Part shown: positions 8,179-61,774 of the stretch, piece after piece
Position numbering within the stretch: position 1 is the first letter of the stretch
How the letters are laid out: every line of letters begins with the position of its first letter
Assembly (NCBI GenBank): GCA_000004695.1
Contig: CM000153.2
Coordinates: 2,784,001 to 2,848,000, forward strand
Length of the DNA stretch: 64,000 nt
From: Dictyostelium discoideum
Lineage: Eukaryota
Reading direction: 5' to 3'
Position numbers and translations under genes: made by a program
The notes under the pieces: model-generated
Seen by the model: only the letters and a program-made list of their open reading frames with translations
The model's database searches: none
Told to the model about the DNA's origin: nothing

Positions 8179-8240
8179 GACAGTTGACGAAGTTTTTCTT
8201 TGAATGTAAGGAAATGTTAGATTTGCTGTAAGGTCAACTT
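8179..8240 (-). ncRNA. Class I RNA-type small ncRNA gene (copy A, ~62 nt)
   Basis: The minus strand reads AGTTGACCTTACAGCAAATCTAACATTTCCTTACATTCAAAGAAAAACTTCGTCAACTGTCC, then TTTTG. It has the 11-nt Class I motif CCTTACAGCAA next to a 5' AGTTGAC / 3' GTCAACT terminal stem. A DUSE-like ACCCAAAA box lies ~86 nt upstream on the same strand. Confidence 0.6.
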
Positions 8241-9915: not shown

Positions 9916-9973
9916 AGTTGACCTTACAGCAAATCTTACAATTTCATCCTAAGAAAAAATACAGTCAACTGTC
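9916..9973 (+). ncRNA. Class I RNA-type small ncRNA gene (copy C, ~58 nt)
   Basis: AGTTGACCTTACAGCAAATCTTACAATTTCATCCTAAGAAAAAATACAGTCAACTGTC + TTTTTTT. Perfect CCTTACAGCAA motif, a 7-bp terminal stem (AGTTGAC/GTCAACT) and a T-run terminator. Confidence 0.65.
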
Positions 9974-46331: not shown

Positions 46332-46877
<546 letters not shown>

Positions 46878-47141: not shown

Positions 47142-47384
47142 TTAAATTACAGAATTTGGATTCATATAAAATCTTTGATCTTTATTTAATTTATCCAAAC
47201 TATTAACTATATCATCAGATAGAGTGAAATCTAAGATCATTTGATTTTCAATCAATCTATGAACATTTTCAGTTTTTGGAATTACAGGGCAATTGTGTTC
47301 TAAACAATATCTTAATAATAATTGTGATGGTGTTCTTCCAACTTTTTTTGCAAATTCTTTAACACTTTCATTATTTAATAACTG

Positions 47385-47422
<38 letters not shown>

Positions 47423-48170
47423 AATAATCACCCACCCAACAACAATAATAATAATTTTTTTTTTTTTTTTATAAAAATTTAAAATTACTTACTCTACCAC
47501 CAGCTAAACTTCCATAACTTTCTAAAATTATTTTATTATTTTTACAAAATTCTAATAAATCTTTTTGAAAATTTAAAGGATGAAATTCAACTTGATTTAT
47601 TGCTGGTTTTATTTGTAAATTTGGTGATGATAAAAGTTCAGTTAAATGATTGATTGTATAATTTGAAACACCAATTGAACGTACTTTTTTATCTTGATAT
47701 AGTTTCTCTAGAGCTCTCCAGGTTTGAGCTCGTTGAATTGAATTACCACTATCACTACCATCCAATCCTTTTACACCAGGCCAATGAATTAAATAACAAT
47801 CTAAATAATCCAATTGTAACTTTTTCAAAGATGATTCAAATGCTTTTAAAGCATTTTCATAACCTTGCTCCATAAAACTACATTTACTAGTTATAAATAA
47901 ATCTTCTCTTTTTATCTTTTTACCATCTAATCCATCATTCTTTGTAACCATTTCATTTAATACTTTACCAATTCTTTCTTCATTATTATACATTGATGCT
48001 GTATCAATACGTCTATAACCATTCTCTAAACCAACTTTAATAATATTTTCAATATCATTTAATTTAAATGTTCCAATTCCTAACATTGGCATTTTAATTG
48101 GATTTAAATTTAATTCATTTAAAATTATAAAATTTTCATTTTCATTATTATTATTATTATTATTATTCAT
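47142..48170 (-). CDS. Aldo-keto reductase (aldose reductase-like), tandem copy 1. Model join(48170..47493,47381..47142), 306 aa.
   Basis: AKR catalytic residues and motifs (..LGIGTFK..IDTASMYNNEE..IHWPG..SIGVSNYTINHL..NQVEFHP..). C-terminal exon (..IPKTENVHRLIENQMILDFTLSDDIV..) after donor AGA|GTAAGT and acceptor AATCCAG. Confidence 0.75.
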
Positions 48171-48494
48171 TTTTTTTTATTTTTTATTTTTGAATTTAAT
48201 AAGAGATAGAATTTGTGTGTGTGAGTGTGTTTTATATGTTATTAAAAAATAAAAAAAAATAAAAAAAAGAAAATAAATCAATTTATATAAAAAAAAAAAA
48301 AAAAATAAACACAAAAAAAAAAAAAATAAACACTAAAAAAAAAAAAAAATAAATAAAAATTATAAAAAAAACAAATTCAATTATTACCAAAAAAAGTTAT
48401 TTTTTTTTTATTTTTAGCTTTTTAGGTTTATTTATTTTTAGCTTTTTTGGCTTTTTCTATTTTTAGCTTTTTTTACTTTTAGCTTTTTTAATTT

Positions 48495-49497
48495 TTAGTT
48501 AACATTACTTGGGTCCCAATAAAATCTTTTATTTTTATTTAAATGATTTAATTTTTGAATATCTTCATTTGAAATTGTAAAATCTAAATTTGAATTTTCA
48601 TATACTCTTTCAGGTTTAATTGATTTTGGAATAACGACTAAACCATTTTGAATAGCCCATTTCAATAAGACTTGAGCAGGTGATTTTGAAAGTTGTTTTG
48701 AAATTTCCAATACTACAGGCTCAGTTAAGATCTCATTACCACCAGAGAGACTGCCATAAGCCTCCAATACGATGCCATTTGATTTACAGTAATTTAAAAG
48801 CTCCTCTTGGAAAAGGTATGGATGGAACTCGACTTGATTCATCACTGGTTTAATTCTACAATTTGATAATAGTTCATGTAAGTGCGATATGGCGTAGTTG
48901 GAAACACCGATAGAACGAACTTTACCATCGTCGTAAAGTTTCTCCAAAGCTTTCCAAGTTTGAGAACGTAGTGAACTCATGCTTTCACCTTTAGGTATTT
49001 CACTATATGTGCCTGGGTAATGAATTAAATAACAATCTAAATAATCCAATTGTAATTTCTCTAATGATTCTTGAAATGCTTTCAATGCATTCTCATATCC
49101 ATGTTGCCAAGTACCAACTTTGGTTGTAATAAATAATTCCTCTCTCTTTACTTTACCTTCTTTAATTAATTCTTTAATTGTATCACCAATCTTTTTTTCA
49201 TTTTTATAATAAGATGCTGTATCAATATGTCTATAACCTAAATTTTTTTTTTTTTTTTTTTTTTTTTTCAATGAAAATAATTAATAATTAATATATTAAT
49301 TATATTTTTAAAAAATTGCTTTTTTTTTTATTTTTTAAAAAAAATAATTACTAACCTTGTTCAATTGCAGATCTTACAGATTTTTCAATATCACTATCAT
49401 CGGTTAAATAAGTTCCTAATCCGATAACTGGAATTTTAATACCATTATTTAATTGAATTGTTGATTTAATAGATTCTGACATTATTTTTTTAATCAT
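48495..49497 (-). CDS. Aldo-keto reductase, tandem copy 2. Model join(49497..49356,49237..48495), 294 aa.
   Basis: N-terminal exon MIKKIMSESIKSTIQLNNGIKIPVIGLGTYL...SAIEQ + G|GTTAGT; the acceptor TTTAG joins GYRHIDTASYYKNEKKIG... The track's poly-K N-terminus is intron/poly-A read-through. The C-terminus is contiguous, with no C-terminal intron. Confidence 0.75.
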
Positions 49498-49890
49498 TAA
49501 AAAAAATTTAAATAAATTATTATTATTATTATTATTAATATTACTATTGGTGAGTGTTTATAAAAAATAAATTAATTTTTTTTTTTTTTTTTTATTCAGG
49601 GTGTGGTCCTATTTATATTAAATTTTTACAAAAAAAAAAAAAAAAAAAAAATAAAATTGAAAAAATAAAAATCTTTTTTTTTCAAAAGCATTTCGATGTT
49701 TCGAATGTTCTTCTTTTTTTAAAAAATAATTGTTTTTTGTTTTTGTTGTGTGTCAATATAGAGAAGTGAGTTGGAGAATATTTTTTTTTTTTTTTTTTTA
49801 AAGAACTACAGTCTAAAAAAATTTTCTATTTTTTAAATTTAAAAAATTCTTTATTTCTTTTTTTTACTTGTTTTTTTATTTTATTTTTTT

Positions 49891-50847
49891 TTAAAGAACT
49901 ACAGTTGGATCCCAACAAATTCTTTTTTCATTGCCCATAGAATCTAATTTTTCCATAATTTCATTTGGAATTTCAAAATCATATAATGAACAATTTTCTT
50001 TAATTCTTTCCGAGTTTGTTGATTTTGGTATAACTACAATACCTTTTTGTAATGCCCAACGAAGCATTAATTGTGCTCTAGTTTTACCTAAAGATTTTGC
50101 ATATTCTACAATAAGATCATCATTTAATTTCTAAATAAAAATAAAACTAAATTAATAAATAATTTTTTTTTTAAAAAAAAAAAAATAAAAAATAAAAAAA
50201 TAAATAAAATTTACTTCACCACGAGTTAATGAAGAATAAGCTTCTAAAATTATATGATTTTTTTTACAAAATTCAAATAAATCTTTTTGATATAAGAATG
50301 GATGAAATTCAACTTGATTTACAGCTGGTTTAATTTGTAAATTTGGTGATGATAAAAGTTCAGTTAAATGATTGATTGTATAATTTGAAACACCAATTGA
50401 ACGTACTTTTTTATCTTTGTATAATTGTTGAAATGCTTTCCAAGTTTCAGCACGAGCTTCTGAATTCTTTGGTGAAGAAGGTTGATTACCAGCTTGACCA
50501 GGCCAATGAATTAAATAAAGATCAACGTAATCCAATTGTAATCTCTTTAAAGAGTTATTACATGCTTCAATTGCTTTATCATAACCATGTTCACTTGTAC
50601 TTGATTTCGTAGTAATAAATAAATCTTCTCTCTTTATTTTACCTTCTTCAAATATCTTTTTTAAACAATCACCAATCGCTTCCTCTTGTCTATAAGATGA
50701 AGCTGTATCAATTAAAATATATCCATTATCAATTATTGCTTCTCTTAAAACTCTTTCCATATCAATTGATTTAATTTGATATGTACCAATACCAAATAAT
50801 GGCATTTCAATACCATTATTTAATTTAATTTTTGATTTTATATTCAT
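49891..50847 (-). CDS. Aldo-keto reductase, tandem copy 3. Model join(50847..50215,50130..49891), 290 aa.
   Basis: MNIKSKIKLNNGIEMPLFGIGTYQ...SLTRGE|GTAAAT; acceptor TTATTTAG then KLNDDLIVEYAKSLGKTRAQLMLRWALQKGIVVIPKSTNSERIKEN...CWDPTVVL. Same C-terminal intron position as copy 1. Confidence 0.75.
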
Positions 50848-57023: not shown

Positions 57024-57095
57024 TCCTTGTTGGTCTAGTGGTGAGGATTTTCGCCTGTCACGCGAAAGGCCCGGGTTCAATTCCCGGACAGGGAG
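57024..57095 (+). tRNA. tRNA-Asp (anticodon GUC)
   Basis: TCCTTGTTGGTCTAGTGGTGAGGATTTTCGCCTGTCACGCGAAAGGCCCGGGTTCAATTCCCGGACAGGGAG: cloverleaf with anticodon loop CTGTCAC, T-loop GGTTCAATTCC, 7-bp acceptor stem, discriminator G. Confidence 0.85.
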
Positions 57096-57105
57096 CTTTT
57101 TGAAA

Positions 57106-61640: not shown

Positions 61641-61702
61641 TTAAATTTTTTGGATGCATTTAGAAAATCGGAACTTCGGATTTGTAGGGATTTTTCAAAA
61701 AG

Positions 61703-61774
61703 CTCCCTGTCCGGGAATTGAACCCGGGCCTTTCGCGTGACAGGCGAAAATCCTCACCACTAGACCAACAAGGA
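61703..61774 (-). tRNA. tRNA-Asp (GUC), second copy in inverted orientation
   Basis: The reverse complement is identical to the 57024-57095 gene. ~30 bp of 5' flank and ~55 bp of 3' flank are also duplicated, and the 5' flank+stem fragment (attcaaaaatatccaataatccttgttggt) occurs a third time at 61850-61880. Confidence 0.85.

What the first reader, a model, noticed from the sequence alone, without database searches (positions are those of the whole stretch)
47142..50847. Three tandem aldo-keto reductase genes with different intron positions
Copies 1 and 3 share a phase-0 intron just before the last ~80 residues. Copy 2 has no intron there and instead has one after the first 47 codons, which its neighbours lack. 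That pattern records intron gain/loss within a young tandem array. The copy-3/copy-1 first exons are nearly identical over the ..SIGVSNYTINHLTELLSSPNLQIKPA.NQVEFHP.. segment, suggesting recent gene conversion. A 20-bp duplicate of copy 3's 3' end (aagaactacag) sits 90 bp downstream.
Basis: seen in the sequence. Interest (0 to 1): 0.5.

Follow-up and report, generated by a model that had tools for sequence, protein, structure and literature searches.

The report
Three tandem aldo-keto reductase genes
Three neighbouring, already annotated aldo-keto reductase genes of Dictyostelium discoideum do have introns in different places. They are old duplicates that still swap short stretches of DNA, and one intron is probably a recent gain seen only in D. 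discoideum and its closest relatives.

Summary
Window 47142-50847 (minus strand) holds three intact aldo-keto reductase (AKR) genes. They are identical to the annotated D. discoideum AX4 proteins XP_640005, XP_640006 and XP_640007. Copies 1 and 3 share a phase-0 intron 79 codons before the stop (intron B). Copy 2 lacks B and has a phase-1 intron (A) after codon 47. An RNA-derived contig confirms that A is spliced.

The array is not young: the copies are 51-54% identical in protein, the three-gene array is present in five related genomes, and D. purpureum has two copies.

- **Intron B** is inherited. Single-copy orthologues in Heterostelium and Cavenderia have it within one codon.
- **Intron A** occurs only in D. 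discoideum, D. cf. discoideum and D. citrinum. It is absent from D. firmibasis, D. dimigraforme and D. purpureum. That is most simply a recent gain at an AG|GT site (about 0.6 versus loss).
- **An extra intron in copy 1 (A')** is found in D. firmibasis and D. dimigraforme, 15 nt from the A site.
- **Gene conversion** is real. Copies 1 and 3 share an 85-nt perfect run (P<=1e-4). The direction is copy 1 to copy 3, and the newest part is specific to D. discoideum.
- **The 22-nt 3' duplicate** is real and limited to the AX4 lineage.

These are ordinary processes in known genes, so interest is modest.

The parts
47142..48170 (-). AKR copy 1 (305 aa; XP_640005.1 / Q54NR2). Exon 1 is 48170..47493 and exon 2 is 47381..47142.
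   Evidence: Spliced translation is identical to the annotated protein. PF00248 E 1e-44. dN/dS 0.13-0.22 against orthologues.
47382..47492 (-). Intron B of copy 1. It is 111 nt, phase 0, GTAAGT..CCAG, and lies after codon 226 (LAGGR|LLNNE).
   Evidence: Present at the same column in copy 1 of all six discoideum-complex genomes.
48495..49497 (-). AKR copy 2 (XP_640006.1 / Q54NR1; 289 aa from the ATG at 49482, 294 aa from the conserved in-frame ATG at 49497). Exon 1 runs to 49356 and exon 2 is 49237..48495.
   Evidence: PF00248 E 9e-53. The RNA-derived contig L010 covers 49517..48463 with the intron removed.
49238..49355 (-). Intron A of copy 2. It is 118 nt and phase 1, inside the Gly codon of EQ|GYRHID. 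The donor is GTTAGT. It is flanked by the direct repeat AGGTTA.
   Evidence: Present in D. discoideum (AX4 and ACTFIW), D. cf. discoideum (two genomes) and D. citrinum. Precisely absent in D. firmibasis, D. dimigraforme and the D. purpureum copy-2-like gene.
49891..50847 (-). AKR copy 3 (290 aa; XP_640007.1 / Q54NR0). Exon 1 is 50847..50215 and exon 2 is 50130..49891. It is the orthologue of the single-copy gene of other dictyostelids.
   Evidence: PF00248 E 2e-47. Groups with D. purpureum P0144 (96%) and with the single-copy genes (88-92% bootstrap).
50131..50214 (-). Intron B of copy 3. It is 84 nt, phase 0, GTAAAT..TTAG, and lies after codon 211 (LTRGE|KLNDD).
   Evidence: Same alignment column as intron B of copy 1.
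47611..47695 (-). Copy 1 side (the donor) of the 85-nt stretch identical to copy 3.
50333..50417 (-). Copy 3 side (the acceptor) of the conversion tract. It includes a 6-nt insertion and the SSPNLQ residues, which otherwise occur only in copy 1.
   Evidence: Copy 3 of all other species reads S--Q[SC][TI]; the tract is shared by D. discoideum isolates ACTFIW and ACTFIR.
47783..47819 (-). Copy 1 side of a 37-nt stretch identical to copy 2 (49019-49055; LQLDYLDCYLIH). It is a candidate older or recurrent copy 1/copy 2 conversion tract.
   Evidence: P<=1e-4. Copy 1/copy 2 identity is elevated here in all six species.
49019..49055 (-). Copy 2 side of the 37-nt stretch identical to copy 1.
49884..49905 (-). 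Original 22-nt sequence spanning the last four sense codons, the stop codon and the first 3'-UTR bases of copy 3.
49791..49812 (-). 22-nt duplicate of the copy-3 3' end, 93 nt downstream in the copy 3/copy 2 spacer.
   Evidence: The homologous site in D. discoideum ACTFIW and in all other species lacks it.

Best explanation
The region is a tandem array of three functional genes for NADPH-dependent aldo-keto reductases of the bacterial YvgN/DkgA-like type. These are probably reductases of reactive carbonyls such as glyoxal and methylglyoxal. The organism is Dictyostelium discoideum.

**Shown**
- The gene models equal the annotated proteins.
- The catalytic Asp, Tyr, Lys and His are kept in all three copies.
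- All three copies are under purifying selection.
- The array is old.

**History of the copies**
- Copy 3 is the orthologue of the single gene found in other dictyostelids.
- Copy 2 belongs to a paralogue lineage shared with D. purpureum.
- Copy 1 is found only in the D. discoideum species complex, and its origin is unresolved.

**History of the introns (inferred)**
- Intron B, shared by copies 1 and 3, is inherited from the ancestral gene. The copy-2 lineage lacks it in every species sampled.
- Intron A of copy 2 arose recently, in the common ancestor of D. discoideum and D. citrinum. It was an insertion into an AG|GT site, leaving an AGGTTA repeat and an atypical GTTAGT donor. I give the gain about 0.6 against loss.
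- In the same clade copy 1 lacks a second 5' intron (A', 15 nt away in the alignment) that D. firmibasis and D. dimigraforme carry. This is probably a precise loss.

**Ongoing DNA exchange (shown)**
- The copies keep exchanging short tracts by gene conversion.
- The newest event copied about 85 nt from copy 1 into copy 3 within D. discoideum proper. It lies on top of an older copy 1/copy 3 tract.
- A copy 1/copy 2 tract also exists.
- The 22-nt repeat of the copy-3 end is a small templated patch found only in the AX4 lineage.
For: - **Identity and function class.** PF00248 hits for all three. Exact matches to XP_640005-7. The closest solved structures are B. subtilis YvgN (3f7j, E 3e-97 with the profile) and YtbE. 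D56, Y61, K96 and H129 are invariant. dN/dS is 0.09-0.22.
- **Age of the array.** Pairwise protein identity is 51-54%. The three-gene array is seen in five further genomes. Two copies exist in D. purpureum and a single copy in H. album, C. fasciculata and T. lacteum.
- **Orthology.** Bootstrap support is 96% for copy 3 + D. purpureum P0144, 88-92% when the single-copy genes are added, and 58-65% for copy 2 + P0028. Copy 2 and P0028 also share the HYPG..IPKGE loop and the RFYW C-terminus.
- **Intron map.** Exact protein-to-genome mapping of 23 genes gives 9 positions.
- **Intron B.** It lies at column 234 in copies 1 and 3, and at column 235 in H. album and C. fasciculata.
- **Intron A.** It occurs only in the clade {D. 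discoideum, D. cf. discoideum, D. citrinum}. That clade is separated from {D. dimigraforme, D. firmibasis, D. purpureum} with 98% bootstrap. The coding sequence is colinear at 289 aa with or without the intron. Splicing is confirmed by contig L010.
- **Conversion.** The 85-nt run has P<=1e-4. Within the tract 27 of 28 same-residue codons are identical, against 10 of 20 when compared with copy 2. Polarity and timing come from the codon alignment across species.
- **Duplicate.**
Against: - **Gain versus loss of intron A is not settled.** Only one outgroup exists for the copy-2 lineage (D. purpureum), and its orthology has moderate support. If D. firmibasis and D. dimigraforme are sister species (27% bootstrap), the loss scenario needs only two losses. 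Genome-wide in Dictyostelium, losses outnumber putative gains about 10:1 (PMC4683709).
- **No source for intron A.** None could be found. Four of the six bases of the AGGTTA repeat are expected from splice-site consensus alone.
- **Annotation quality.** Intron positions in the newer genomes rest on annotated proteins without RNA evidence that I could check. However, their lengths (not multiples of three) and the conserved residues across junctions require splicing.
- **Copy 1.** Its placement in the tree is unresolved (47-50%).
- **Untested.** Substrates and expression were not tested.
Confidence: 0.8

Rival explanations
1. Intron A is old in the copy-2 lineage. It was lost precisely, by recombination with reverse-transcribed mRNA, in D. 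firmibasis and D. dimigraforme and separately in D. purpureum. Nothing was gained.
For: - Precise losses are the dominant mode in Dictyostelium: 441 losses against 40 putative gains in D. discoideum (PMC4683709).
- The absence in D. firmibasis and D. dimigraforme is exact to the base.
- The branching order of these two species is not resolved (67% versus 27%).
Against: - It needs two or three independent losses against one gain.
- The lost intron would be a 5' intron, whereas reverse-transcriptase-mediated loss favours 3' introns (PMC4683709).
- No other member of the family in any species has an intron at this column.
- The donor GTTAGT/GTTTGT is the only GTT donor among the roughly 30 introns mapped here.
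Confidence: 0.33
2. One reading: a young tandem array in which the differing introns record gain and loss since the duplications.
For: The copies are adjacent, on the same strand, and differ in intron positions. A stretch of near identity suggests recent contact.
Against: - Protein identity between copies is 51-54%.
- The array is conserved across the species complex, and two lineages are already present in D. purpureum.
- The shared intron B predates the array.
- Near identity is confined to 85 nt and is explained by conversion.
Confidence: 0.05
3. The near-identical copy 1/copy 3 segment reflects strong selection on a cofactor-binding part of the protein, not DNA exchange.
For: The segment includes the conserved SIGVSNY and NQVEFHP motifs, which are invariant in all three copies.
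Against: - Synonymous sites are homogenised too: 27 of 28 codons are identical, against 10 of 20 versus copy 2 for the same residues.
- The variable loop SSPNLQ, with its 6-nt insertion, appears in copy 3 only in D. discoideum and matches copy 1.
Confidence: 0.02
4. The 22-nt duplicate is a relic of a fourth, degraded AKR copy or of the original duplication junction.
For: It reproduces the last codons and the stop codon of copy 3 and lies between two copies.
Against: - It is absent at the homologous site in another D. discoideum isolate and in all five related genomes, which read GGA(T)CTTTTAAAAA there. It is therefore newer than the array.
- tblastn finds no other AKR-like sequence in the spacer.
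Confidence: 0.03

Closest known systems
Bacillus subtilis YvgN and YtbE (glyoxal/methylglyoxal reductases; PDB 3f7j, 3d3f, 3b3d) and the DkgA-type 2,5-diketo-D-gluconate reductases
   Same: Same fold family (PF00248). About 50% identity over the full length. The catalytic Asp-Tyr-Lys-His and the IPKS cofactor motif are kept.
   Different: The Dictyostelium proteins carry an insertion of about 11 residues after the HWPG motif. Copy 1 has a poly-Asn N-terminus and IPKT instead of IPKS. Substrates are untested.
Genome-wide intron loss and gain in Dictyostelium (Ma et al. 2015, PMC4683709)
   Same: Precise presence/absence of short AT-rich introns between species. Losses are attributed to recombination with cDNA. 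Gains are rare, and most have no identifiable source.
   Different: That study compared D. discoideum with D. purpureum and more distant species. Here the changes are dated within the D. discoideum species complex (about 8-12% coding divergence) and lie in tandem paralogues. I could not establish whether these genes were in their tables.
Intron gain at AG|GT proto-splice sites with short flanking direct repeats (double-strand-break repair model described for Daphnia, cited in PMC4683709)
   Same: Intron A sits in CAAG|GTTA and is bounded by AGGTTA on both sides.
   Different: The repeat is short and largely dictated by splice consensus. No source sequence or polymorphic population is available here.
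Interlocus gene conversion between tandem paralogues (concerted evolution of short tracts)
   Same: A sharply bounded tract of identity including synonymous sites. The tract disagrees with the species relationships. There are nested older tracts.
   Different: Tracts are very short (37-85 nt) in otherwise strongly diverged genes. The genes therefore do not evolve in concert as wholes.

Membership tests
Aldo-keto reductase superfamily (PF00248) | Full-length match to the Aldo_ket_red profile | tested here: met
   E 1e-44, 9e-53 and 2e-47, covering profile positions about 4-290 of 291.
Aldo-keto reductase superfamily (PF00248) | Catalytic tetrad Asp, Tyr, Lys, His | tested here: met
   D56, Y61, K96 and H129 (copy 1 numbering) are invariant in the three copies. 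They align with the IDTA..Y, ITSK and LIHWP motifs of YvgN. Assignment of these motifs to the tetrad rests on established knowledge of AKR1B1 and YvgN.
Aldo-keto reductase superfamily (PF00248) | NADPH-dependent carbonyl reduction | not testable with these tools
   Needs an enzyme assay.
Interlocus gene conversion | Tract of identity far longer than expected from the overall divergence, including synonymous sites | tested here: met
   85-nt run versus a permutation mean of 14.5 and maximum of 38 (P<=1e-4). 27 of 28 same-residue codons are identical.
Interlocus gene conversion | Within the tract the acceptor resembles the paralogue rather than its own orthologues | tested here: met
   D. discoideum copy 3 has the SSPNLQ form of copy 1. 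Copy 3 of six other genomes has S--Q[SC][TI].
Recent spliceosomal intron gain | Intron confined to a derived clade and absent from outgroups at a colinear site | tested here: met
   Present in 5 genomes of the discoideum/citrinum clade. Absent in D. firmibasis, D. dimigraforme and D. purpureum P0028. The coding sequence is 289 aa in all. Outgroup sampling is thin.
Recent spliceosomal intron gain | Identified source sequence | tested here: inconclusive
   Similarity to intron A' or to the B introns is no greater than background. blastn was swamped by low-complexity matches. A whole-genome search was not possible.
Recent spliceosomal intron gain | The new intron is actually spliced | tested here: met
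   Contig L010 from SRR24091728 carries an uninterrupted 294-codon frame and joins 49356|49237. That the run is RNA is inferred from the absence of the intron.
Reverse-transcriptase-mediated intron loss | Exact deletion of the intron with the flanking coding sequence unchanged | tested here: met
   Copy 1 of the discoideum/citrinum clade is colinear with D. firmibasis and D. dimigraforme copy 1 across the A' site. The same pattern would also fit a gain in the other two species.

The most novel reading that the evidence does not exclude
On one short branch, the ancestor of D. discoideum and D. citrinum, copy 1 lost its 5' intron and copy 2 acquired one only 15 nt from the homologous position, in the same phase. 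This could be a single event. The intron excised from the copy-1 transcript may have reverse-spliced into the transcript of the neighbouring paralogue, been copied back into DNA, and been fixed. That would be intron transposition between tandem paralogues. The evidence does not exclude it, but nothing positively supports it beyond the coincidence in time and place.
Probability: 0.05. Interest if true: 0.75.

Novelty: new member of a known kind. Interest (0 to 1): 0.33.

Why it matters
The genes and the processes involved (tandem duplication, intron loss and gain, gene conversion) are all known, so this changes no general view.

Its value is as a clean, well-dated small case. Three paralogues and nine genomes give nine intron positions. 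One of these is an intron that is spliced in D. discoideum and precisely absent in species only about 11% diverged in coding sequence. Well-dated candidate intron gains are scarce in Amoebozoa: the only genome-wide study found a source sequence for just two.

If further group-4 genomes confirm the gain, this locus would be a convenient model for asking how new introns arise in an intron-poor, extremely AT-rich genome. The nested conversion tracts also show that paralogues only about 65% identical still exchange stretches of less than 100 nt. That matters for anyone building trees or designing knock-outs for these genes.

Tried and rejected
- **Source of intron A.** Local alignment of intron A against intron A' and against all B introns gave z-scores no higher than between unrelated AT-rich introns. 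Even orthologous intron A of D. discoideum and D. citrinum is not recognisably similar, so the test has no power.
- **blastn for a source.** A search with the introns against the window and all fetched loci was swamped by poly-A/T and AT-rich matches.
- **Loss of A' by conversion from copy 2.** The only hint is a CGT-to-AGA change next to the site. That change also fits the AT mutation bias, and an intervening R/H difference is not converted. I left it as a weak hint.
- **Intronisation of coding sequence as the origin of A.** Rejected, because the coding sequence is colinear and of equal length with and without the intron.
- **Hidden AKR fragments.** I looked for a fourth copy or AKR fragments in the window and in the D. 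purpureum spacer and found none.
- **Published tables.** I looked for these genes in the supplementary tables of PMC4683709. Without their DDB_G identifiers I could not tell. A full-text search for the accession numbers found nothing.
- **Tree-building problems.** The first bootstrap attempt timed out. Support values were computed on rooted clades and are unreliable, so they were replaced by proper bipartition counts.
Full report
**What is there.**
The window is extremely AT-rich (21.7% G+C), and exact protein matches identify it as Dictyostelium discoideum AX4. Between 47142 and 50847 the minus strand carries three genes.

| Copy | Exons (minus strand) | Length |
|---|---|---|
| 1 | 48170..47493 + 47381..47142 | 305 aa |
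| 2 | 49497..49356 + 49237..48495 | 294 aa (289 aa from the annotated ATG at 49482) |
| 3 | 50847..50215 + 50130..49891 | 290 aa |

Each spliced translation equals an annotated AX4 protein: XP_640005.1/Q54NR2, XP_640006.1/Q54NR1 and XP_640007.1/Q54NR0, all named aldo-keto reductase. All three match Pfam PF00248 over its full length. tblastn finds no further copy in the 64 kb.

**Check of the observation.**
- Copy 1 has a 111-nt intron after codon 226 and copy 3 an 84-nt intron after codon 211. Both are phase 0 and fall in the same alignment column, and both leave a last exon of 79 codons.
- Copy 2 has no intron there. It has a 118-nt phase-1 intron inside the Gly codon of EQ|GYRHID, after codon 47 of the long form. 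Copies 1 and 3 read through that site.
- A 937-nt contig assembled from run SRR24091728 (L010) contains an uninterrupted 294-codon frame. It aligns to window 49517..49352 and 49239..48463, so the intron is removed exactly as modelled.
- The 22-nt duplicate is at 49791-49812 and 49884-49905.

**The array is old, not young.**
- The three proteins are 51-54% identical, and the coding sequences 63-67%.
- Copy 2 is as similar to Bacillus YvgN-type reductases (about 50%) as to its neighbours.
- The same three genes, in the same order next to a sideroflexin gene, occur in D. firmibasis (L001), D. dimigraforme (L003), D. citrinum (L008), two D. cf. discoideum genomes (L004, L009) and a second D. discoideum isolate (L011).
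- D. purpureum has two copies (L002). Heterostelium album, Cavenderia fasciculata and Tieghemostelium lacteum each have one at the locus found.
- In neighbour-joining trees with proper bipartition bootstraps:
  - Copy 3 groups with D. purpureum P0144 (96%) and then with the single-copy genes (88-92%).
  - Copy 2 groups with D. purpureum P0028 (58-65%). This is reinforced by the shared HYPG..IPKGE loop and RFYW C-terminus.
  - Copy 1 has no orthologue outside the complex, and its position is unresolved.
- All three copies are under purifying selection (dN/dS 0.09-0.22) and keep the catalytic Asp, Tyr, Lys and His.

**Intron history.**
I mapped each annotated protein back onto its genomic DNA exactly and placed the introns on a common alignment. 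The 23 genes have nine intron positions.

| Intron | Position | Where it is found |
|---|---|---|
| B | Column 234, phase 0 | Copies 1 and 3 of all six complex genomes |
| B-like | Column 235, phase 0, in a variable loop | H. album and C. fasciculata single-copy genes |
| A | Phase 1, EQ\|GYRHID | Copy 2 of D. discoideum AX4 and ACTFIW, both D. cf. discoideum and D. citrinum |
| A' | Phase 1, inside the Asp codon of GYRRI\|DTAS, 15 nt 3' of the A site | Copy 1 of D. firmibasis and D. dimigraforme only |
| Others | Unique positions around the HWPG motif, including a 26-nt mini-exon | The D. purpureum genes |
| Other | Unique position | T. lacteum |

- B is best read as inherited from the ancestral gene. 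Copy 2 and P0028 lack it, and so does D. purpureum P0144.
- In D. firmibasis and D. dimigraforme copy 2 is an uninterrupted 870-nt frame. The junction reads CAAGGTTAT or CAAGGATAT.

**Gain or loss of intron A.**
- Concatenated coding sequences separate {D. discoideum, D. cf. discoideum, D. citrinum} from {D. dimigraforme, D. firmibasis, D. purpureum} with 98% bootstrap. D. firmibasis is basal in 67% of replicates, and D. firmibasis + D. dimigraforme form a clade in 27%.
- One gain therefore competes with two or three losses.
- In favour of gain:
  - No other family member has an intron at this column.
  - It is a 5' intron.
  - Its donor (GTTAGT, or GTTTGT in D. citrinum) is the only GTT donor among about 30 introns mapped here.
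  - It sits in an AG|GT site and is bounded by AGGTTA on both sides.
- In favour of loss:
  - Precise losses are about ten times more frequent than putative gains in Dictyostelium (PMC4683709).
  - There is only one outgroup.
  - Most of the repeat is dictated by splice consensus.
- I put gain at about 0.6. No source sequence could be found, and the tests have no power in such AT-rich, fast-evolving introns.
- The absence of A' from copy 1 in the same clade is most simply a precise loss, but a gain in the other two species is not excluded.

**Gene conversion.**
- Copies 1 and 3 of AX4 share an 85-nt perfect run (47611-47695 and 50333-50417). The background identity is 66%. Permutation within codon positions gives a mean longest run of 14.5 nt and a maximum of 38 nt in 10,000 trials.
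- In the tract 27 of 28 codons for shared residues are identical. Only 10 of 20 are identical against copy 2.
- The cross-species codon alignment gives the direction:
  - Copy 1 has SSP[NTS]LQ in every species.
  - Copy 3 has S--Q[SC][TI] in every species except D. discoideum proper (AX4, ACTFIW, ACTFIR). There it has the copy-1 form, including the 6-nt insertion.
- This event therefore went from copy 1 to copy 3, after the split from D. cf. discoideum (about 3% coding divergence).
- It lies on an older shared tract. Runs of 47-67 nt occur in D. cf. discoideum, D. citrinum and D. dimigraforme, and no significant run occurs in D. firmibasis.
- A separate 37-nt run links copies 1 and 2 (47783-47819 and 49019-49055, P<=1e-4). 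Elevated identity is seen there in all six species.

**The 3' duplicate.**
The 22-nt repeat of the copy-3 end is not a chance match. However, it is absent at the homologous site in D. discoideum ACTFIW and in all other species, which read GGA(T)CTTTTAAAAA there. It is thus a recent small templated insertion between microhomologies in the AX4 lineage. It is not a relic of the duplication.

**Comparison with what is known, and verdict.**
- The proteins are ordinary members of the aldo-keto reductase superfamily. They are closest to B. subtilis YvgN and YtbE.
- Intron turnover in Dictyostelium and gene conversion between tandem paralogues are both documented phenomena.
- New here is the dating of an intron presence/absence difference, probably a gain, within the D. 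discoideum species complex. The direction and timing of the conversion events are also new.
- I rate the finding as a new member of a known kind with modest interest.

Noticed in passing
window 49483-49497 (minus strand): An in-frame ATG five codons upstream of the annotated copy-2 start (MIKKI-MSES..) is conserved and in frame in all six discoideum-complex genomes. It lies inside the RNA-derived contig L010, which starts 20 nt further upstream. The true start is probably this ATG, giving 294 aa rather than the annotated 289 aa.
   Followed up: partly
window 48403-48498: A tandem array of TTTTTAGC(T) units (AGCTAAAA on the gene strand) lies directly after the copy-2 stop codon, and part of it is within the transcript contig. 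There are four copies in AX4, two in one D. cf. discoideum genome and none in the other species.
   Followed up: partly
window 49609-49617, 49691-49710, 49761-49779 (minus strand): Three sequence blocks upstream of copy 2 are conserved across the species complex in an otherwise unalignable AT-rich spacer. They are TATAAATAG, a GAAnnTTCGAA dyad resembling a heat-shock element, and ATTCTCCAACTCACTTCTC.
   Followed up: no
window 48495-49497 versus 47142-48170: Copy 2 has a higher coding G+C content (29.7%) than copy 3 (26.7%) and copy 1 (23.9%), with many C-ending codons where its neighbours use T or A. This may reflect higher expression or biased conversion.
   Followed up: no
L002 7902-8930 (D. 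purpureum P0144): The copy-3-like gene of D. purpureum lacks intron B. It has two unique introns (74 and 67 nt) flanking a 26-nt mini-exon that encodes the (Y)LIHWPGVK motif with the catalytic His.
   Followed up: partly
L003 2848-3104 (D. dimigraforme copy 3): Intron B has expanded to 257 nt through TAATAA-type repeats. It is 84-116 nt in the other species.
   Followed up: no
window 57024-57096 (+) and 61702-61774 (-): Two tRNA-Asp(GTC) genes with equal Rfam scores lie in opposite orientation 4.6 kb apart.
   Followed up: no
window 8181-8238 (-) and 9917-9971 (+): Two Dictyostelium Class I RNA genes (RF01414; 55.5 and 51.2 bits) lie 1.7 kb apart on opposite strands.
   Followed up: no
window 46477-46636 and 46632-46877: A (TAT)51 microsatellite abuts an 81-codon minus-strand reading frame (MLSHSQKVVRLYRKAIK..). 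Its position matches the 106-107-aa gene called downstream of copy 1 in the related genomes. A sideroflexin gene (PF03820 in the related loci) flanks copy 3 from about 50988.
   Followed up: no
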